64,000 nt of DNA from Methanobacteriota archaeon. GTDB lineage: Archaea; Thermoplasmatota; E2; DHVEG-1. Each line of letters opens with the position of its first letter. Within the stretch, counting starts at the first letter, position 1. Shown here piece after piece: positions 21,136 to 53,630 of this stretch. A program made the translations under genes and the position numbers. Below the pieces are notes generated by a model. It was not told where the DNA came from. It did not search any database and saw only the letters and a list, made by a program, of their open reading frames with translations. The stretch covers positions 64,001 to 128,000 of the forward strand of contig CAVYNH010000004.1 in assembly GCA_963769885.1 (NCBI GenBank), written 5' to 3'.

Positions 21136-22269
21136 ATGCCGATTAAGTTTCTACATACGGCTGACTGGCAAATGGGTATGAAAGCTCTTCAAGCTGGCGA
21201 GAAAGCAAAGGAGGTTCGTGTTAAGCGTTTTGAGACAGCGAAGCGAGTTATTGAATTGGCAAAAAATGAATCTGTTGATTTTGTCATTCTTGCTGGTGAT
21301 TTATTTGAGCATCATGATATTGATGAATTAGTTGTCCGGAAAACAGTGGATATTCTGAACAACTTCAATCCCATTCCAGTCTTTATACTGCCAGGTAATC
21401 ATGATCCTCTTGTTTCCGGCGGCATCTGGGATCGGCATAGCTGGCAGCAAGTTAAAGGTCATATTACACTACTTCGAGAGGCTAAAGAAACCTTGGTCTC
21501 GGATCAGGTCGTCATTTATCCTTCGCCATTATCCCAGAAACAAAGTTCGACCGATCCGACAGAATGGATTCCAACCAGAACTCCTGGCGATAATCGTATT
21601 AGGATTGGGATCGCGCACGGTTCTTTAAACATATTACCTGAGCGTACCAACTTTCCTATTGCAGCTGACCGTGCGGATAAATGTTCATTGGATTGTTTGG
21701 CTCTTGGAGATTGGCACAGTTTCCTACAACATGGTCGGACTGTCTATCCTGGTACTATGGAGCAGACAAGCTTCACCGAAAAAGATTCGGGAAACGTTGC
21801 AATAGTAGAGATTAAGAAAGTGGGTAATGAGCCGATTGTTTTTAAAAAACATATTGGACAATTCCTTTGGAGCGAGCATCAACCAACTATTCAGGACAAA
21901 ACCGATGTTGATGGTTTTCGTGCCTTACTCTTGAAACAAGCATCGCTTTCCAACCAACTACTTAGGATAGCACCGATAATCACTCCAGAAGCCTCTTCAG
22001 ACGCTATATCCGAACTAAAAATACTTCGAGATGAGCTGTTTGAAGAATCATTCTTTCTCAACTGGCCAGATGAAATGTTTAATACCACCCTTGATACCTC
22101 AGCGCCCTTACCGGACGGACTACTATCTAATGTGGATATTGACTTCGCAAACATTCTCAATCACCGGATTCCAGATGGACCTGGCCAGGAGTTCGCATCA
22201 GCTGACTTAACAGTGGTCCTTGAGGCACGAACTCTTCTCAGACGAATTGCAAAAGAGGGGGCAAAATGA
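21136..22269 (+). CDS. Mre11/SbcD (YhaO-like) metallophosphoesterase nuclease
   Basis: HTADWQ, AGDLFE, PGNHD, AHG, ALGDWH motifs. Confidence 0.9.
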   Translation: MPIKFLHTADWQMGMKALQAGEKAKEVRVKRFETAKRVIELAKNESVDFVILAGDLFEHHDIDELVVRKTVDILNNFNPIPVFILPGNHDPLVSGGIWDRHSWQQVKGHITLLREAKETLVSDQVVIYPSPLSQKQSSTDPTEWIPTRTPGDNRIRIGIAHGSLNILPERTNFPIAADRADKCSLDCLALGDWHSFLQHGRTVYPGTMEQTSFTEKDSGNVAIVEIKKVGNEPIVFKKHIGQFLWSEHQPTIQDKTDVDGFRALLLKQASLSNQLLRIAPIITPEASSDAISELKILRDELFEESFFLNWPDEMFNTTLDTSAPLPDGLLSNVDIDFANILNHRIPDGPGQEFASADLTVVLEARTLLRRIAKEGAK

Positions 22270-24956
22270 TTCTCGAAGAAATCCAAGTAACTAACTGGCG
22301 AAAATTTCGTGAACCTCAGGCATTCAAATTCAAAGACGGAGTTAATTTATTAGTCGGCAGGAACGAAGCGGGTAAATCCACTCTCTTTGAAGCACTCACA
22401 AGGGCTTTTTTCGATCGATATAATTCCAAAAATGATGAAATCAAGGCTATGCAACCGATTGGGAGTTCTCTTGGGCCTGAAGTAAAAATCCAATTTCAAT
22501 CGAATGGTACTCGGTATATGAGCGTAAAACGGTTCATTCAAAACCCTCAAAGTCAATTATTTTCCGAACGAAATGGTAAATGGGAACTGAACCACGAAGG
22601 TGATAAAGCCGATGCATACATGCGCGAACTTCTGCAAGGAGAGACAGCACAAAGAACTGAGGCGAGACCTGAACACCGTGGTATCGCACAGGCCCTTTGG
22701 TACCTTCAAACAGATGGATCAATCCCAGTTACAGCCTGGAATGAGGGCGTCAAACAAGGTCTTCAAGGTCTAGTTAAGATTGCAGCAACTTCACCACGAG
22801 AAAGAAAAATTCTAGAAGGTATCGAAAAGGTATACAATGAGTACTGGACACCAAAAGGTCGTCTTACTTCAAATAGTGAATTAGCTAATCTTCAAGTAGA
22901 AATACCTATATTAGTAGAGAATTTGACAACGATTCGCGAAAAAGCTCGGATAGTAGATAGTTATAGAACTGACTTAGAGGAGTATTGTGATGAAGAATCC
23001 TTGAAAAAACTCGAACTTGGAAAAGCTGAAAATGAACTTATAGAACTAACCAAGCTCGTTCAAGCTGCAGAGATAGTAGAGAAAGAAAAGGAATCAAAAG
23101 AGAAGGCAAAGAAAGAGGCTTTTGAACGAAGACAAAAGCTCAAGCAGGATATCGAACAAATCCAAGGTCGACAGAGTAAGGTTATTGAGTTGAAAAACGA
23201 GTTTAAAAAATTAAATGAATCCTTAACCGAAATTGGAACAGATGCCAAATTAGAAGCAACTGCGAGCGAACGGCATGCTCGATGCTGGAAAGAAGAACTT
23301 GAACCTATCCTAAAGCATTTGGAAGACGAACTCCGCGCACTGCATGCTGTAGCAAATCTTAGAAAGCTGGAGAAAGAACAAGATCGTCTAAAGGAACATG
23401 GTCAAAAAATTATCCAAATCCGTTCCCAACTTGAAGACCGTAAAAAGGAACGTTCCGGAATATTATCTCCAGATATTCAGGAATGGAAAAAGTTCACAAA
23501 AGCCTCAGTTGACTTGAACATCGTAACAGCAAAGGTTGAGTCAAGTGCCGTTAGGGTAAAGTTTGAATGGGATGATACTAAGAAGAAAATCACGACTCGC
23601 CCCCCTCTCAAAGAATCGGGAAAGGGGGAGTTCATCGTTGCGGAGGCTACTGAGTTTATTGTCCAAGGAGTGGGCAAAATTCATATTCGCAGCGGGGCTC
23701 AAGACTTGAAGGATCTCCTATCTGAACAGGCTCAATTAAATCAAGACTTAGACAAAATACTACAACGATTTCATGTTAAAGATAAAGACGGCCTCGCGAC
23801 TCTGTATGAAAAGGGGCGCGATTTGGATCAAGCAATTACCAAATTAGATGAGAATCTTCAAGAAATAGAAAAAAGAGAACCTGATTGGGAAGAAGAGTTA
23901 TCACGCACTGAAAGAGGTATTGAAGAAGAAACTCGAGCAGCTGGAGAACTCGCCTCAGAAGCATTAAAGCAAGGAGGTCGTTCCATTAGGGAGCAAATTG
24001 CTAAAAAAGAAAGTGAAAAAGAAGGTCTAATAAGAAGAATTAAGGGGGAACAAGAACTTGCTGAAGCAGCAGGTAAAAAAAATTTGGATCTCCTGAAAAA
24101 GCAAGGAATCATATCCAGTACAATAGCAGAACGAAATGCGCAAATTGGGATGCATGAGGAAAACATCACTGAAATTCTACAAGCTTACGGGACTATTAAT
24201 CATCTCAAGGAACTGGTTATCAAAGCCGATGAGGAGCTTGCAATCGCTCAAACCTTATTAGAAGGGCTTCTCCAGGATTATGAAAAGAAGGTGGACACTC
24301 CCAGAAAACTCTATTCACAGTGCCAAGATCGGGTCAAGGAACTTGAAGGACAAATAAACGATTTGCGTACTAAGGTGATCTCCACAATGGCTCGTATCGA
24401 AGAATCCGCAGCCCAAGGTAACTATGGGCAACTGGCCGACTTGGAAATCGATGTTGAACAGAAAAGAAAGCGGGTTGAAGTCCTACAACGTCGTGCAAAT
24501 GGAGTAAAACTTTTACACGACATTGTGGCAATCCATGAAAAACAACGTTCCGCTGCTCTTTCAGGACCAGTCCAGGATCTTACAAATAGATGGCTTGGAC
24601 TTCTTACTGATAGCGATTATGATTTACTCCGTATTGATGAATTAATTAGGCCAGCAGGTGTTCACATGACTCGTTACAATGAGGATCTTCCATTGACAAG
24701 CCTTAGCTACGGCGCAAAAGAACAAATTATCGTGTTATTGCGACTTGCAATAGGTGTGCTTATAAGCAAGGATAGCCAGAATCTTGTAGTCATTGATGAT
24801 CATCTTGTTAATGCTGATCCGGTCCGTATGAAACGATTGTGCCTCATTCTTCAGGAAGCGTCTAAAACTTGCCAAATTATAATTGCAACATGCAATGGTA
24901 CGCCCTATGCAGGATTAAAAGCGCACTATGTAAGAGTCCCAGCAGATAAGACCTGA
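22266..24956 (+). CDS. Rad50/SbcC-like (YhaN-type) coiled-coil ABC ATPase
   Basis: GRNEAGKST, long coiled coil, LSYGAKEQ, IDDHLVNAD; ATGA overlap with the nuclease gene; no CxxC zinc hook seen. Confidence 0.85.
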   Translation: MILEEIQVTNWRKFREPQAFKFKDGVNLLVGRNEAGKSTLFEALTRAFFDRYNSKNDEIKAMQPIGSSLGPEVKIQFQSNGTRYMSVKRFIQNPQSQLFSERNGKWELNHEGDKADAYMRELLQGETAQRTEARPEHRGIAQALWYLQTDGSIPVTAWNEGVKQGLQGLVKIAATSPRERKILEGIEKVYNEYWTPKGRLTSNSELANLQVEIPILVENLTTIREKARIVDSYRTDLEEYCDEESLKKLELGKAENELIELTKLVQAAEIVEKEKESKEKAKKEAFERRQKLKQDIEQIQGRQSKVIELKNEFKKLNESLTEIGTDAKLEATASERHARCWKEELEPILKHLEDELRALHAVANLRKLEKEQDRLKEHGQKIIQIRSQLEDRKKERSGILSPDIQEWKKFTKASVDLNIVTAKVESSAVRVKFEWDDTKKKITTRPPLKESGKGEFIVAEATEFIVQGVGKIHIRSGAQDLKDLLSEQAQLNQDLDKILQRFHVKDKDGLATLYEKGRDLDQAITKLDENLQEIEKREPDWEEELSRTERGIEEETRAAGELASEALKQGGRSIREQIAKKESEKEGLIRRIKGEQELAEAAGKKNLDLLKKQGIISSTIAERNAQIGMHEENITEILQAYGTINHLKELVIKADEELAIAQTLLEGLLQDYEKKVDTPRKLYSQCQDRVKELEGQINDLRTKVISTMARIEESAAQGNYGQLADLEIDVEQKRKRVEVLQRRANGVKLLHDIVAIHEKQRSAALSGPVQDLTNRWLGLLTDSDYDLLRIDELIRPAGVHMTRYNEDLPLTSLSYGAKEQIIVLLRLAIGVLISKDSQNLVVIDDHLVNADPVRMKRLCLILQEASKTCQIIIATCNGTPYAGLKAHYVRVPADKT

Positions 24957-25068
24957 AAGCAATAAGTGAATTTCGAAATCGGAGAATTGGTAATGATTGC
25001 AAATAAGAAACGAACTGAAGCATTCCATTTGGAGAAAAAAGCGATAAGGACCGTAGAAGATTTAATAA

Positions 25069-25121
25069 TGAAATAGGGGCTTTGCCCTTATAATCCCTTC
25101 CGCCTTCGTTCCTTACATCTG
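25069..25121 (+). repeat. Repeat A copy 1, left half (interrupted by IS110)
   Basis: TGAAATAGGGGCTTTGCCCTTATAATCCCTTCCGCCTTCGTTCCTTACATCTG matches the 5' half of the intact copies. Confidence 0.9.
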
Positions 25122-25204
25122 ATGGCAGTAGAACCCTTTTTCTAAAGAGAATACTCAAGTGCTTCTTGCCATTAAAGCACTTGAATCTAAGGTGAGAACA
25201 CACT

Positions 25205-26182
25205 ATGGAAACACTCTATGGAGGCATAGACATCCACAAAGAAAAACTAGCAGGCTGCATCATGGACAAGGATGGAACCATCACCAGAGAACACACCTTT
25301 CCATCCTCAAGAAAGGCACTAGAACGCTTCCTCACCGGCATCCCCAACGCAGGCACAACCATCGCCATAGAAGCATGCGGAATGTGGAGAGGAACACACA
25401 AAATATTAACAGACATGGGGTACGACGTCAAACTGGCGAACCCGAAGAAAATCCATGATATCGCCTGTAAAAAGAAAACCGATCGAGCCGATGCCAAAAT
25501 CCTGACAGACCTCGTGAGGACGAAGTACCTCCCCGAGATCTGGATCCCAGACGAACACACCCTCAAGTTCAGGGATCTTACACGACACAAAGCCACCCTC
25601 ACACGACTCAAAACACAGATACAATGCAAGATCAAAAGCTACCAGCTCCGAAAAGGAGCACCATATAGCAAACACTGGAACAAAAACACCCTCGCAGCAC
25701 TCACCGAAGAAGAACCAGACATCCGAAACCTCATCACCATCTACACCACGATCACAGAAGAAGAAAAAGAAGTCATGAAAAGAATCAAACAACTTGCCCG
25801 ACAGAACAAAGAAACAACCCTGCTCATGACCATCCCAGGCATCGCCGAATTCTCCTCCCTCATGATCCTCGCCGAAATCGGCGACATCCACCGCTTCAAA
25901 ACACCCAAAGAACTCATCAGCTACGCAGGCCTCTACCCAGGCGTCTACCAATCCGCCACCACCGAACGAACTGTCCGAAACACCGCCGTGAACAAATGGC
26001 TGAAATGGATCATCTACGAATGCTCAGGACGAGCCATCACACTCGACCCACGATTCCAACACTCCTACTACCCAATCCAGAAACGAAAAGGACAACAGAC
26101 TGCACGACGATCCACCGCACGCAAAATGCTCACCATCATATGGTATATACTCACCAACCAAGAACCCTACAAAGCATCATAA
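25205..26182 (+). CDS. IS110/IS1111 DEDD recombinase (transposase)
   Basis: GIDIHK, IAIEA, KTDRADA, TIPGI...ILAEIGDIHRF...YAGLYP..YQS. Confidence 0.95.
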   Translation: METLYGGIDIHKEKLAGCIMDKDGTITREHTFPSSRKALERFLTGIPNAGTTIAIEACGMWRGTHKILTDMGYDVKLANPKKIHDIACKKKTDRADAKILTDLVRTKYLPEIWIPDEHTLKFRDLTRHKATLTRLKTQIQCKIKSYQLRKGAPYSKHWNKNTLAALTEEEPDIRNLITIYTTITEEEKEVMKRIKQLARQNKETTLLMTIPGIAEFSSLMILAEIGDIHRFKTPKELISYAGLYPGVYQSATTERTVRNTAVNKWLKWIIYECSGRAITLDPRFQHSYYPIQKRKGQQTARRSTARKMLTIIWYILTNQEPYKAS

Positions 26183-26199
26183 AAAAAAAGCATTCAGAG

Positions 26200-26380
26200 T
26201 CCTCTATCGGACAACAAATCATGGAGGGCAAGGGCACCCCCAAAGACCCGCTAAGCCAAACAACACACTAGCTGTCTGAGCTTCCTCATCTGATTTGGGG
26301 GCTCTTCAACCACTTGCCACAATGTGCCACACAGAACGATGTGAGCACCCAGGAATGCTTGTGGATTAAGCCCTTGCCAA
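26200..26380 (+). ncRNA. Predicted bridge/seek RNA of the IS1111 element (transcript ends approximate)
   Basis: Closing stem 26227-35/26370-78; target loop stem 26237-44/26294-301 with AAGACCCGC and TCATCTG; donor loop stem 26317-22/26359-64 with TGCCA and AGGAATG. Confidence 0.8.
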
Positions 26381-26446
26381 CAAAAAATATTAATCAAAAC
26401 GGAGGATACCAAAATAGCGAAACAGGAAAAAGAGTTCTAAGGAATG

Positions 26447-26500
26447 CGGGTCTTACGCTAATGCTTCAGACCGCGCAGTATTCCCGGCCGCTACGGATAA
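26447..26500 (+). repeat. Repeat A copy 1, right half
   Basis: CGGGTCTTACGCTAATGCTTCAGACCGCGCAGTATTCCCGGCCGCTA matches the 3' half of the intact copies. Confidence 0.9.
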
Positions 26501-26520
26501 AATCTTTTCAATTCAAAAAT

Positions 26521-27003
26521 TCACGTAGTTTTTTCTGGTAAAATTATTACTGTAGGGTTCCATCTAAGATATTCGCCACGATATTCAATATCTATTAACA
26601 TTGATGAGGTAATTAGTAAAGAAACAGCCCTCGGTTTTTTAAGAAAGTCTCTGTATGTTTTGGGATAAACATAGGGTACAATAATATCTCTTCCAGGACG
26701 AATTGACCATAAAAATCCAAATAGTTCTTTATTTTCGAATTTTGTTATGATTATACATAATTGTTCATTTTTCTTAACATTATAATTTGATATATTTATT
26801 AGGCATACATCAAGATAGTAGTGGTTGAAACTATGAGGCGTATGTAATAGATATTCGAAATAATACTTTGGAATTATATTTATACTACCGATTGAATTCG
26901 TAGATTTATAGAAGATGTAATGATTTGGTAATTTCAATTTATCAAGTATTTTTGATTTTATTGTTATTTCACAAGTTTCTTCATCCATTTTATCATTTAT
27001 CAT
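26521..27003 (-). CDS. Hypothetical protein co-transcribed with the SIR2-like gene
   Basis: 160-aa AT-rich ORF starting 5 bp after the SIR2-like stop. Confidence 0.65.
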   Translation of the reverse strand: MINDKMDEETCEITIKSKILDKLKLPNHYIFYKSTNSIGSINIIPKYYFEYLLHTPHSFNHYYLDVCLINISNYNVKKNEQLCIIITKFENKELFGFLWSIRPGRDIIVPYVYPKTYRDFLKKPRAVSLLITSSMLIDIEYRGEYLRWNPTVIILPEKTT

Positions 27004-27008
27004 AGTTG

Positions 27009-28142
27009 TTATCCCATTGATTCAAATAAGTCCATGAGTTGTAAATTTGATTTGAAACCGCCATTAATGAAGATTGGATCCTTTACTATTTTTGTATATC
27101 TTTTTTTTAACTCATTATCTATATTTTTATTTATAATAAATATTTCCTTGTTGTTATATTCATTTATATATTGAAATAATTTTTTAGCTTCTTTATCATA
27201 ATCTGGAAAGGAATATCCAATGATATAGATAATATCAGCAGTTCTAATTTCATTTAATGCTTTCTTCCATAATCTCTTTAGGGAAAAATGAATATCTTTA
27301 CAATTGGGTGGAACTATAAAATGTCTTGACCAATTTTTAACCTTACATATTGGACATATTTCCGCATCATCTGGAGTTAGAAATGGAGCAGGGTAATAAA
27401 AAATAGTTTTACAGTTATAGCATTCATATAATGATAACGAGCCATGTAGCTTTAATATTGGTATTTTGCCTTTGGTTGGGTATTCAACTGGAAGAAAGCT
27501 TAGAAGATTAGTAAACTCTTCTATGTTTGGATACTTAACTCTAAAGAAATTCTTAATTTCTCGATTGCTGTAACCTAAATTATAGTTCTTGAAATTATCT
27601 TTATTTAGCCCTAAATCTGGAGAGGTCGATGCTAGATCATAAAGCGTTCCTAAAGTATGTTCTAAAAATAGATCATGATTAAAGGAAATTATTGAATTAG
27701 ACCTGCCAGAAAAAATTTTATATATAAAGTTCATAAATGAATTATCAGGAATTTTACATAATATAACATCATCTGCTTTTAGTAATAATTTATGATAATA
27801 ATTAAGCAGTCTGTTTAACTCTTTCATATCTTTTTTCTTTTCAAGATACGTCATTAATTCTTCAAATTTTAAACCATATTTTAAAAAATATTCACATTCA
27901 GCTTTGAGTTTATCTATAGAATCCTCCCCAAAAAATGGTTTTGGACCGTCGGTGAGAGTAAAATTTGGTGGTGGTTTATAGAGACTAATTATAGGTGTTT
28001 CATCTAATAATGATTTTATTTCTAGTTCAATGTAATTCAAATAATCTATAGAAAGAACATCACTCACTGATGGATATCCAAAACCCTTTGAAGCTCCTGC
28101 ACCTAATATATATACACGCTTAATGCATTGTAATTTACTCAT
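27009..28142 (-). CDS. SIR2-like (SIR2_2) putative NADase with Zn ribbon
   Basis: ILGAGAS, SFNHD, LKLHGS, CxxC...CxxC, IIGYSFPDYD. Confidence 0.85.
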   Translation of the reverse strand: MSKLQCIKRVYILGAGASKGFGYPSVSDVLSIDYLNYIELEIKSLLDETPIISLYKPPPNFTLTDGPKPFFGEDSIDKLKAECEYFLKYGLKFEELMTYLEKKKDMKELNRLLNYYHKLLLKADDVILCKIPDNSFMNFIYKIFSGRSNSIISFNHDLFLEHTLGTLYDLASTSPDLGLNKDNFKNYNLGYSNREIKNFFRVKYPNIEEFTNLLSFLPVEYPTKGKIPILKLHGSLSLYECYNCKTIFYYPAPFLTPDDAEICPICKVKNWSRHFIVPPNCKDIHFSLKRLWKKALNEIRTADIIYIIGYSFPDYDKEAKKLFQYINEYNNKEIFIINKNIDNELKKRYTKIVKDPIFINGGFKSNLQLMDLFESMG

Positions 28143-33240: not shown

Positions 33241-33312
33241 TGTTTTGGGAAAAAGATGGCGTCTTTCATCAGCGAGTCTTCACTGCGGTTCAGACCGCAT
33301 AGTATTCCCAGT
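33241..33312 (+). repeat. Repeat A, partial variant copy
   Basis: CTTTCATCAGCGAGTCTTCACTGCGGTTCAGACCGCATAGTATTCCC; shares its alternative 5' leader with the 45373 copy. Confidence 0.75.
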
Positions 33313-34973: not shown

Positions 34974-35079
34974 TGAAATAGAGGCTTTTCGTCTATGACC
35001 CCGTTCCGCCTTCGTTCCTTTCATCTGCGGATCTGAACCGCAGTAAAAATCGCGCAGTATTCCCGGCCGCTATTGATAA
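34974..35079 (+). repeat. Repeat A, full copy (central 16 bp inverted)
   Basis: Matches 53524-53630 except for TCTGAACCGCAGTAAA at 35032-35047. Confidence 0.9.
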
Positions 35080-45372: not shown

Positions 45373-45455
45373 TTGTTCTGAAAAAGACGGCGGCCTTTAA
45401 TCTGCGGGTCTTTACTACTCTGTTTAAACCACGTGATATTTCCGGTTGCTATCTA
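45373..45455 (+). repeat. Repeat A, degenerate variant copy
   Basis: CTTTAATCTGCGGGTCTTTACT...ATTTCCGG.TGCTAT. Confidence 0.65.
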
Positions 45456-53523: not shown

Positions 53524-53630
53524 TGAAATAGGGGCTACGCCCCTATGACCCCGTTCCGCCTTCGTTCCTTTCATCTGCGGGCCTTTACTGCGGTTCAGAC
53601 CGCGCAGTTTTTCCGGGCCTCTATTGATAA
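53524..53630 (+). repeat. Repeat A, full reference copy
   Basis: ATAGGGGC-TAC-GCCCCTAT hairpin; empty IS target TCATCTGCGGGCC at 53571-53583. Confidence 0.9.

What the first reader, a model, noticed from the sequence alone, without database searches (positions are those of the whole stretch)
25069..26500. Archaeal IS1111 element whose bridge/seek RNA is visibly programmed against a dispersed genomic repeat
Seen: the element is bounded by ...ACATC-TG|ATGGCAG and AGGAA-TG|CGGGTCTT, with 14-bp sub-terminal IRs, and excising it restores a repeat-A copy. The ~260-bp right end folds into a closing stem (GGCAAGGGC 26227-35 / GCCCTTGCC 26370-78) holding two internal-loop hairpins. Loop 1 (stem 26237-44/26294-301) carries AAGACCCGC (26243-51), the exact reverse complement of the right target flank GCGGGTCTT, and TCATCTG (26286-92), which equals the repeat-consensus left flank plus core. 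Loop 2 (stem 26317-22/26359-64) carries AGGAATG (26351-57), the element's right end plus core, and TGCCA (26325-29), complementary to TGGCA at the left end. Established: IS110/IS1111 recombinases use such bispecific RNAs, and IS621 targets E. coli REP sequences. Inference: this is a compact 325-aa archaeal RNA-guided recombinase with a TG/CA core and near-cognate empty targets at 35021, 45398 and 53571.
Basis: partly seen in the sequence, partly recalled or inferred. Interest (0 to 1): 0.92.

Follow-up and report, generated by a model that had tools for sequence, protein, structure and literature searches.

The report
Archaeal RNA-guided insertion sequence targeting IS200 ends
This is an intact jumping gene of the known IS110/IS1111 type in an uncultured archaeon; it carries its own guide RNA, which is matched to the end of another, smaller jumping gene, so it is a well-supported new member of a known system and not a new principle.

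Summary
The element is real. It spans window 25122-26446 (1325 bp, TG core on both sides) and sits in a ~110-bp miniature copy of an IS200-type transposon. It encodes an intact 325-aa IS110-family recombinase (DEDD plus Ser) and has 14-nt sub-terminal inverted repeats and a long 3' non-coding end, as in the IS1111 group.

The 152-nt module at 26227-26378 has two internal loops. Read together, the two target-loop strings spell a 16-mer. That 16-mer occurs exactly 7 times in the 2.09-Mb genome, always in the tnpA-upstream end of full-length IS200-like copies, and all seven sites are empty.

I compared 92 homologous loci. Across 16 independent guide classes, the guides covary with their own flanks: right side 99/128 matches against 45 in shuffles (0/50000), left side 51/112 against 29 (2/50000).

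The conserved stem is 26310-13/26361-64, and the left-end guide is TGCCA at 26315-19, not 26325-29.

No expression or circle-junction data exist, and this copy is single. The scan has already reported this element and other archaeal IS1111-type guide RNAs on other DNA.

Verdict: new member of a known kind, of moderate interest.

The parts
25068..25121 (+). Left part of the interrupted IS200-derived miniature element (tnpA-distal end with hairpin GGGGC...GCCC). It ends in the left target plus the TG core (25120-21).
   Evidence: Alignment to 9 full-length ~700-bp copies and to 4 uninterrupted miniature copies.
25122..26446 (+). IS110-family (IS1111-type) insertion sequence, 1325 bp counting one TG core. 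It is single-copy in the genome.
   Evidence: blastn and tblastn find only this copy. No other LE, RE or RNA-module motif occurs in the genome. The ends are conserved in homologous loci.
25122..25128 (+). Left terminal extension ATGGCAG. Positions 2-6 (TGGCA) are complementary to the 5' side of the donor loop.
   Evidence: in 37 loci TGGCA faces TGCCA (or TGCTA); in 20 loci TGGTA faces TGCCA through a G.T wobble; in 1 locus TGGTA faces TACCA.
25129..25142 (+). Left sub-terminal inverted repeat.
   Evidence: pair I1: 14 nt, 93% complementary to 26426-26439.
25205..26182 (+). Recombinase gene, 325 aa, intact. Catalytic residues are D9, E56, D93, D96 and S250.
   Evidence: Pfam PF01548 and PF02371. 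NCBIfam NF033542, 207.8 bits against a cut-off of 140. Profile alignment to IS621 (8wt6) places these residues on D11, E60, D102, D105 and S241.
26199..26212 (+). Small conserved hairpin (GTCC/GGAC) just upstream of the RNA module. It may be a 5' stem-loop of the RNA.
   Evidence: Visible in the 3' regions of the homologs. No covariation test was done.
26227..26378 (+). Bridge/seekRNA module, 152 nt: closing stem 26227-35/26370-78, the target-binding loop, then the donor-binding loop.
   Evidence: Fold. Alignment of 61 distinct homologs. Pair counts: 95.1% of cells paired, against at most 50% when partners are slid.
26243..26251 (+). 5' target guide AAGACCCGC. It is complementary to the top strand of core G plus the right target CGGGTCTT.
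   Evidence: 9/9 match with the actual right flank. It covaries with right flanks in homologs.
26253..26283 (+). Distal hairpin of the target loop (AAGCC / G-A-GCTT with a conserved bulged A).
   Evidence: Helix 3: 3 of 5 pairs show changes on both sides; 96.7% of cells paired.
26284..26292 (+). 3' target guide CCTCATCTG. It has the same sense as the left target plus the TG core, so it pairs with the bottom strand.
   Evidence: 6 contiguous matches with the actual flank and 8/8 with the IS200-like consensus. It covaries with left flanks.
26310..26364 (+). Donor-binding loop. It comprises stem CCAC/GTGG (26310-13/26361-64), the 5' guide TGCCA (26315-19), distal helix GTGC/GCAC (26324-27/26345-48) and the 3' guide AGGAATG (26351-57, which equals the right end plus core).
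   Evidence: The 3' guide changes together with the right end in L077 and L084.
26426..26439 (+). Right sub-terminal inverted repeat.
26440..26446 (+). Right terminal extension AGGAA plus the TG core.
26447..26500 (+). Right part of the interrupted miniature element. It corresponds to the tnpA-upstream end of the IS200-like element, starts with the right target CGGGTCTT and carries the sub-terminal hairpin.
53570..53585 (+). Empty near-cognate target (2 mismatches) in an uninterrupted miniature copy. Others are at 45397-45412 (2 mismatches), 35020-35035 (3) and 33265-33280 (3).

Best explanation
Window 25122-26446 is an intact IS1111-type member of the IS110 family in a Thermoplasmata-like archaeon.

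Proposed mechanism:
- The DEDD/Ser recombinase is guided by a ~150-nt RNA encoded in the long right end.
- The first internal loop of that RNA reads the insertion site. [quoted passage not shown] - The second internal loop reads the element's own joined ends. AGGAATG matches the right end plus core, and TGCCA matches positions 2-6 of the left end.
- The programmed target is the base of the sub-terminal hairpin in the tnpA-upstream end of an IS200-type element and of its gene-less miniature derivatives. Here the element landed in a miniature copy that departs from the guide at 2 positions in the outer part of the left target.

Shown: the anatomy, the family, the intact catalytic residues, guide-target complementarity, and its covariation across relatives.

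Inferred from IS621 and the IS1111 seekRNA work: that the RNA is made and bound, that the element moves through a circle, and that exchange occurs at TG.
For: Protein:
- Pfam DEDD_Tnp_IS110 plus Transposase_20. NCBIfam 'IS110 family RNA-guided transposase', 2.4e-61.
- D9, E56, D93, D96 and S250 align to the IS621 catalytic residues.

Architecture:
- 14-nt sub-terminal inverted repeat.
- 264-nt non-coding region downstream of the gene against 83 nt upstream.
- TG on both sides but once in empty sites.

Target in the host genome:
- 7 exact 16/16 matches, all in IS200-like ends.
- 4 near-cognate sites in the window against 0.55 expected.

Relatives:
- 12 loci in genomes and 80 in metagenomes share the ends and the RNA scaffold.
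- With one representative for each of 25 distinct right guides, cognate flanks match 5.88/8 against 2.48 for non-cognate flanks (0/20000 shuffles).
- With 38 distinct left guides, cognate flanks match 3.66/7 against 1.70 (0/20000).
- With one locus for each of 16 guide classes: right 99/128 against a shuffle mean of 45.2 (0/50000); left 51/112 against 29.1 (2/50000).

Structure: 27 pairs, 95.1% of cells paired, and helices 3 and 5 covary.

Guide order: the top-strand match lies 5' of the bottom-strand match. This is the order reported for IS1111 seekRNAs (PMC11187229, abstract and section 'A seekRNA finds the target'). It is the reverse of IS621 (PMC11208160, passages).
Against: - No RNA data: no listed run is RNA.
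- No circle junction or empty-site polymorphism for this element in 4 laid metagenome runs, which are contigs only.
- No Rfam family matches, and the single-sequence fold is not exceptional (z = -1.6).
- This copy is single although 7 perfect targets stand empty. It may be inactive or tightly repressed.
- Some loci do not fit their own guides: L008 (2/8 and 0/7), L053 right side (2/8) and L026 (3/8 and 3/7).
- Five left guides fit only with a 1-nt shift (L054, L056, L058, L062, L077).
- The closing stem is mostly invariant, with unpaired cells in 13-15 of 61 sequences at four of its positions, and RNAalifold prefers another pairing for its 5' strand.
- The donor loop is almost invariant, so co-change with the ends rests on two divergent elements (L077, L084).
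- The 5' donor guide leaves left-end position 1 and the core unpaired.
Confidence: 0.88

Rival explanations
1. Only target choice is RNA-guided. The element's own ends are recognised by the protein through the sub-terminal inverted repeats, and the second loop is scaffold whose matches to the ends are incidental or auxiliary. This is the short-seekRNA picture.
For: - The short seekRNAs that co-purified with IS1111-family transposases (82-96 nt) were described by their target matches (PMC11187229, section 9).
- Here the second loop is nearly invariant in 59 of 61 RNAs, so it gives no covariation.
- The 5' donor guide pairs only 5 nt (plus one wobble) and skips the core.
- A 14-nt sub-terminal repeat is available as a protein site.
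Against: - In both divergent elements with a changed right end (L077 ...AGAGGTG, L084 ...AGAGATG), the 3' side of the loop carries the same change.
- L077 also has a 5' side that pairs with the core plus left-end positions 1-4.
- The one locus with TACCA has a TGGTA left end.
- Durrant et al. predict donor-binding nucleotides in IS1111 bridge RNAs (PMC11208160, passages).
Confidence: 0.15
2. The copy is a dormant or dead relic. It has the anatomy of an RNA-guided element but no longer moves in this genome.
For: - It is a single copy, with no paralog and no solo RNA module, while 7 perfect and several near-cognate targets are empty.
- Third codon positions have drifted to the host's C-rich usage (C3 = 0.46 in both, against 0.20-0.24 in three close homologs, L002, L018 and L076, and 0.34 in L004). 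This suggests long residence without spread.
Against: - The reading frame is open over 325 codons and all five catalytic residues are kept.
- Both ends and every conserved RNA position are intact.
- The target guides still match the IS200-like consensus 16/16.
- The genome is about 92% complete and in 7 contigs, so repeated copies could have been lost in assembly.
Confidence: 0.3
3. Site choice is made by the protein alone, and the loop strings are chance matches or captured pieces of target DNA.
For: The single-sequence fold is not significant, and no curated RNA family matches.
Against: - Guides and flanks change together across 16 independent classes on both sides.
- The variable strings sit at fixed positions of a conserved scaffold.
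- One guide is antisense and the other is sense to the target, which captured DNA would not explain.
Confidence: 0.02

Closest known systems
IS1111-group elements with seekRNA (ISEc11, ISKpn4, ISPa11, ISPst6; Siddiquee et al. 2024, PMC11187229)
   Same: - DEDD/Ser transposase.
- Sub-terminal inverted repeats with short terminal extensions.
- Long non-coding region downstream of the gene that encodes the guide.
- The top-strand match lies 5' of the bottom-strand match, and the two overlap at the core.
   Different: - Archaeal host.
- The protein is 325 aa, against the 330-350 aa given for the group.
- The motif after GL-P---- reads SA rather than SG/TG.
- The target is an IS200-type end.
- Relatedness to the IS1111 clade in a tree was not tested.
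- No biochemical data.
IS621 bridge RNA system (Durrant et al. 2024, PMC11208160; Hiraizumi et al. 2024, PMC11208158; PDB 8wt6)
   Same: - Two internal loops, one for the target and one for the donor, each reading both strands around a 2-nt core.
- Same catalytic residues.
- The target is a repeated hairpin element. IS621 targets REP sequences; I saw that reference title.
   Different: - The RNA lies in the right end, not the left.
- The order of the strand matches within each loop is reversed.
- The core is TG, not CT.
- Long sub-terminal repeats are present.
- The protein matches IS621 only at profile level (E = 6e-17).
IS4321/IS5075 (target the terminal repeats of Tn21-family transposons) and the IS1111-attC group (reference titles seen)
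   Same: IS1111-type elements whose preferred site lies inside the end or recombination site of another mobile element.
   Different: The victim here is an IS200/IS605-family element and its miniature derivative, in an archaeon. I found no paper describing that pairing in the searches (listings only), which is not proof of absence.
Haloarchaeal IS110-family transposases on plasmids (Natrinema, Halanaeroarchaeum, Haloarcula)
   Same: Archaeal IS110-family genes of the same length. They are the best matches in the plasmid collection.
   Different: Only 32-34% identity. Their RNAs and targets were not examined here.

Membership tests
IS110 family (DEDD/Ser recombinase elements) | N-terminal DEDD (RuvC-like) domain and C-terminal Transposase_20 domain | tested here: met
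   PF01548, 73.2 bits (cut-off 29). PF02371, 71.8 bits (cut-off 21.3). NF033542, 207.8 bits (cut-off 140).
IS110 family (DEDD/Ser recombinase elements) | Catalytic D-E-D-D tetrad and serine nucleophile | tested here: met
   D9, E56, D93, D96 and S250 align with IS621 D11, E60, D102, D105 and S241. In 6 aligned homologs the serine position is S or T.
IS110 family (DEDD/Ser recombinase elements) | No terminal inverted repeats at the tips; a 2-nt core shared by target and donor, not a longer duplication | tested here: met
   TG flanks both ends and occurs once in empty sites. At the right junction of homologs the first core base varies: GG in 4 loci and AG in 4 loci.
IS110 family (DEDD/Ser recombinase elements) | Circular intermediate with joined RE-core-LE | not testable with these tools
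   Only assembled contigs of 4 DNA runs could be laid, and no such joint was listed.
IS1111 group | Sub-terminal inverted repeats of 7-17 bp with terminal extensions | tested here: met
   14 nt, 13/14 complementary, set 7 nt in from each end. The definition is from PMC11208160 (passage).
IS1111 group | Longer non-coding region, and the guide RNA, downstream of the transposase gene | tested here: met
   264 nt downstream against 83 nt upstream. The RNA module lies at 26227-26378.
IS1111 group | Transposase falls in the IS1111 clade; GL-P----S(t)G motif | tested here: inconclusive
   The motif reads GLYPGVYQSA here, with SA, SG or TG in homologs. No tree with ISfinder IS1111 and IS110 proteins was built.
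Bridge RNA / seekRNA | Guide segments complementary to both strands of the target, covarying with the target | tested here: met
Bridge RNA / seekRNA | Second loop complementary to the element's own ends (donor) | tested here: met
   AGGAATG equals the right end plus core. TGCCA pairs with left-end positions 2-6. Co-change with the ends is seen only in L077 and L084.
Bridge RNA / seekRNA | Conserved secondary structure with internal loops | tested here: met
   61 distinct sequences, 95.1% of cells paired. Helices 3 and 5 covary, helix 4 is invariant, and the closing helix is weakly supported.
Bridge RNA / seekRNA | RNA is expressed and bound by the recombinase, and is required for transposition | not testable with these tools
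   No RNA run is listed.
IS200 group of IS200/IS605 (the targeted element) | Y1 (HUH) transposase, ~700 bp, sub-terminal hairpins, no inverted terminal repeats | tested here: met
   PF01797, 8.9e-11. 9 copies of ~700 bp. A hairpin in the tnpA-upstream end holds the target.

The most novel reading that the evidence does not exclude
The element may be a hyperparasite that rides on its victim. Its guide is tuned to the foot of the hairpin that the IS200 transposase must recognise. Because the element's own right end finishes in ...ATG, insertion changes only one base of that hairpin arm (CTG to ATG before CGGGTCT). The miniature element with the IS1111-type element inside it therefore keeps both IS200 ends. 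It could be moved as single-stranded cargo by the IS200 transposase supplied in trans. That would give the RNA-guided element a second route of spread, independent of its own recombinase. Alternatively, the host may retain one codon-adapted copy as a brake on IS200 spread.
Probability: 0.1. Interest if true: 0.6.

Novelty: new member of a known kind. Interest (0 to 1): 0.38.

Why it matters
This clade offers an unusually clean natural experiment in an archaeal lineage. It has a compact recombinase (325 aa), a ~150-nt guide, at least 16 natural guide classes and their insertion sites. Together these show which guide positions tolerate mismatches: the core-proximal 6-8 nt on each side are kept, while the outer left-target positions are loose.

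It also extends a known habit to archaea and to IS200-type ends. IS110/IS1111 elements are already known to home in on hairpins of other repeats or mobile elements, such as REP sequences, attC sites and Tn21 ends.

Archaeal IS110 recombinases were already catalogued (662 in bioRxiv 10.1101/2024.06.21.599552, passage). Bridge RNAs were already predicted for 93% of IS1111 elements (PMC11208160). No new principle is involved.

Tried and rejected
- Rfam scan of 24800-26800 at E <= 10: only a chance lncRNA hit outside the element.
- Public runs: no RNA holder listed.
- Laying 4 DNA runs (Logan contigs): pieces of the element at 90-100% likeness. One contig replaces the element with 647 other letters between the same flanks, which is a full-length IS200-like copy. 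An empty IS200-like target site shows as a loose end. No circle junction and no empty allele of this very site.
- Default inverted-repeat search (seed 9): found nothing. A seed of 7 found the sub-terminal repeat.
- RNAalifold did not return the closing stem. It pairs AGGGC with G(Y)CCT next to the target-loop stem instead. I cannot decide between the two pairings.
- The commonest target class among relatives (...TGG-TG-TTCAAATCC...) looked like a tRNA T-arm. ARAGORN found no tRNA in 0 of 14 computationally reconstructed empty sites.
- I searched for other copies of the RNA module, left end or right end in the genome using degenerate motifs. Only this copy and weak chance matches were found.
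- My regex for the 3' donor guide misfired in 7 of 63 loci, including L077 and L084. Those two were read by eye.
- Loci lacking a parsed guide or flank (contig ends) were left out. 62 of 93 sources entered the right-side count and 56 of 93 the left-side count.
- Supplementary tables of the two 2024 papers (lists of elements, predicted RNAs and targets) could not be consulted. They may already list relatives of this clade.
Full report
WHAT IS THERE

The open reading frame at 25205-26182 (+) encodes 325 aa. It carries the two Pfam domains of IS110-family transposases (PF01548 and PF02371). It scores 207.8 bits against NCBIfam NF033542, 'IS110 family RNA-guided transposase', whose cut-off is 140.

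A profile of the protein and five homologs matches the solved IS621 and ISCro4 recombinases (E = 6e-17 and 1e-16). In that alignment D9, E56, D93, D96 and S250 fall on IS621 D11, E60, D102, D105 and S241. These residues are shown to be essential in PMC11208158 (passages read). The four acidic residues are invariant in the six aligned homologs, and the serine position is S or T.

The host is an archaeon. The genome's SSU rRNA matches the archaeal model best within its clan (1510 bits). Of the 12 related loci in species-representative genomes, 9 are titled Thermoplasmatales or Thermoplasmata. The other three are titled Methanobacteriota, Nitrosotalea and (a 3-kb contig) Dehalococcoidales.

BOUNDARIES AND THE REPEAT

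The element runs from ATGGCAG at 25122 to AGGAATG at 26446, with TG on both sides (25120-21 and 26445-46). A 14-nt sub-terminal inverted repeat (13/14 complementary) lies 7 nt inside each end.

The interior is single-copy. blastn and tblastn against the 2.09-Mb, 7-contig genome find only this copy, and motif searches find no second left end, right end or RNA module.

The flanks belong to a dispersed repeat. In 9 places the two flank sequences are the two ends of a ~700-bp element. That element encodes a Y1 'IS200-like' transposase (PF01797, 8.9e-11). In 4 places the two flank sequences lie directly side by side as ~105-116-bp gene-less copies. The window's flanks, joined computationally, align to these copies without a break.

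An earlier follow-up in this scan reached the same reading (e1-370931), and I re-derived it independently. The target lies in the end upstream of tnpA, at the foot of a sub-terminal hairpin.

THE RNA AND ITS TARGET IN THIS GENOME

The energy is unremarkable (z = -1.6) and no Rfam family matches.

Loop 1 carries AAGACCCGC (26243-51) and CTCATCTG (26285-92). AAGACCCGC is antisense to core G plus the right flank. CTCATCTG has the same sense as the left target plus core.

Read as a target, the two strings give a 16-mer. It occurs exactly 7 times in the genome, each time in the tnpA-upstream end of a full-length IS200-like copy on contig C7, and every one of those sites is empty. One further copy has 1 mismatch, and four IS200/miniature ends have 2 mismatches. 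In the window, 4 sites with at most 3 mismatches stand against 0.55 expected. The site actually occupied departs from the guide at two outer left-target positions.

COMPARATIVE TEST

Scanning genomes (12 loci) and metagenomes (244 relatives, best 80 kept) gave elements at 45-80% protein identity. They share nearly the same ends and the same RNA scaffold, but their strings at the two loop-1 positions are very different.

The right guide and right flank could both be read in 62 of 93 sources. The left guide and left flank could both be read in 56 of 93.

Results with one representative per distinct guide:
- Right side: cognate flanks match 5.88 of 8 positions against 2.48 for non-cognate flanks.
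- Left side: cognate flanks match 3.66 of 7 against 1.70.
- No shuffle out of 20000 reached either observed sum.

Results with one locus for each of 16 guide classes, where right guides sharing 6 or more of 8 positions were merged:
- Right side: 99/128 against a shuffle mean of 45.2 (0 of 50000 shuffles reach it).
- Left side: 51/112 against 29.1 (2 of 50000).

Perfect 8/8 right-side matches occur in four unrelated classes: CGGGTCTT, TTCAAATC, CGAAATTG and TGGCACAA.

Exceptions are real:
- L008 matches neither of its guides, and its left flank is the one expected for the L062 class.
- The L053 right flank is the one used by L063 and L065.
- L026 has a left flank of the IS200 class and an unrelated right flank.
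- Five left guides fit only after a 1-nt shift.

These exceptions look like action in trans, recombination between copies, or register slippage. They were not resolved.

STRUCTURE

On 61 distinct RNA sequences, the five helices I specified pair in 95.1% of cells, against 31-50% when the partners are slid by 1-3 columns. The covariation score is 0.116 against 0.081 in shuffles (0/500).

- The distal helices of both loops covary. Helix 3 has 13 and 9 double changes at two of its pairs, and helix 5 has 14.
- The target-loop stem has two pairs with double changes.
- The donor-loop stem CCAC/GTGG is invariant, so it is uninformative.
- The closing stem is mostly invariant, with unpaired cells partly due to alignment gaps. 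RNAalifold prefers another partner for its 5' strand. The divergent L084 keeps the closing stem through two compensating changes (read).

Its TGCCA (26325-29) lies inside covarying helix 5.

The conserved TGCCA at 26315-19 faces left-end positions 2-6. It pairs with TGGCA in 37 loci and pairs by G.T wobble with TGGTA in 20. The one locus with TACCA has a TGGTA left end.

AGGAATG (26351-57) equals the right end plus core. In the only two elements with different right ends (L077, L084), the loop carries the same change.

COMPARISON WITH KNOWN SYSTEMS

The architecture is that of the IS1111 group:
- sub-terminal repeats of 7-17 bp;
- a long right end predicted to hold the bridge RNA in 93% of IS1111 elements (PMC11208160, passages);
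- a non-coding region downstream of tnp;
- the top-strand match 5' of the bottom-strand match (PMC11187229, abstract and sections 6, 9 and 13 read).

In IS621 the order of strand matches is the opposite (PMC11208160).

Archaeal IS110 recombinases are already catalogued: 662, in several clades (bioRxiv 10.1101/2024.06.21.599552, passages). This scan has reported archaeal IS1111-type guide RNAs on other DNA. The nearest named proteins in the plasmid collection are haloarchaeal IS110-family transposases at 32-34% identity. Targeting the end of another mobile element or a repeated hairpin has precedents: Tn21 ends, attC sites and REP sequences (reference titles seen).

I did not find the IS200-end pairing in the listings. 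That is a weak negative, and the supplementary tables of the 2024 papers were not available.

STATE OF THIS COPY

The gene, both ends and every conserved RNA position are intact. Yet the element is single while perfect targets are free.

Its third codon positions are as C-rich as the host's long ORFs (0.46 in both). Three close homologs (L002, L018, L076) have 0.20-0.24, and L004 has 0.34. This argues for long residence in this lineage and against a very recent arrival.

No RNA run is listed. The four DNA runs laid give neither a circle junction nor an empty allele of this site.

VERDICT

The element is a new, well-documented archaeal member of the IS1111-type RNA-guided insertion sequences, specialised on IS200-type ends. 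Activity and RNA expression remain to be shown.

Noticed in passing
L004, L027, L030-L032, L038, L039, L042, L043, L045, L066, L070, L086, L090, L092, L094 and others (flanks listed): The commonest guide class among relatives targets a conserved ~45-bp sequence (...ACCGGTAAACTGG-TG-TTCAAATCCCTTCCCCTGCAC...), often preceded by ...ACAGGAGAAAA.... It resembles a tRNA T-arm, but ARAGORN finds no tRNA in 0 of 14 reconstructed empty sites. Its nature is unknown; it may be another repeat or element end.
   Followed up: partly
L008, L053, L026: These three elements sit at sites that do not match their own guides but do match the guides or flanks of other classes. The L008 left flank equals that of the L062 class, the L053 right flank equals that of L063/L065, and the L026 left flank is of the IS200 class. 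This suggests mobilisation in trans or recombination between copies.
   Followed up: no
L054, L056, L058, L062, L077: The left guide matches the left flank only after a 1-nt shift: the guide ends ...TTG or ...CTG where the flank has one base fewer before TG. The register of the 3' guide relative to the core may differ between sub-clades.
   Followed up: no
L005, L031, L052, L086 (AGGAAGG); L019, L048, L060, L070 (AGGAAAG): In 8 loci the first core base at the right junction is G or A instead of T, while the left junction keeps TG. This would be expected after insertion into targets with a non-cognate first core base.
   Followed up: no
L047:2676-2694: A solo ~20-bp right-end remnant (sub-terminal repeat plus AGGAATG) sits exactly at the target position of an IS200-like end. 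It lies 183 bp downstream of a complete element of another guide class that is inserted in the same IS200-like copy. It looks like a deletion scar of a former insertion.
   Followed up: partly
window 25205-26182: The recombinase gene has a C-rich, T-poor coding strand (C 31.5%, T 14.1%; third positions C 0.46, T 0.05). This matches the host's long ORFs at third positions (C 0.46). Homologs L002, L018 and L076 have C3 of 0.20-0.24 and L004 has 0.34, and the commonest differences from L002 and L018 are T-to-C and A-to-C. A at third positions stays high (0.37 against the host's 0.15).
   Followed up: partly
window 26379-26425 and homologs: The ~45-nt tail between the RNA module and the right sub-terminal repeat is conserved and contains an A/T-rich AAATAT(T/A)AA motif. 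It could be an archaeal TATA-like element pointing across the joined ends towards the recombinase gene. This is untested speculation.
   Followed up: no
window 22266-24956 (+), 26521-27003 (-), 27009-28142 (-): The element lies between an 896-aa SMC_N/AAA ATPase gene and two minus-strand ORFs (160 and 377 aa) that have no Pfam match.
   Followed up: no
G000:C7 66538: A further IS200-like end with 1 mismatch to the 16-mer has a diverged tip, which points to a second IS200-like subfamily in the genome.
   Followed up: no
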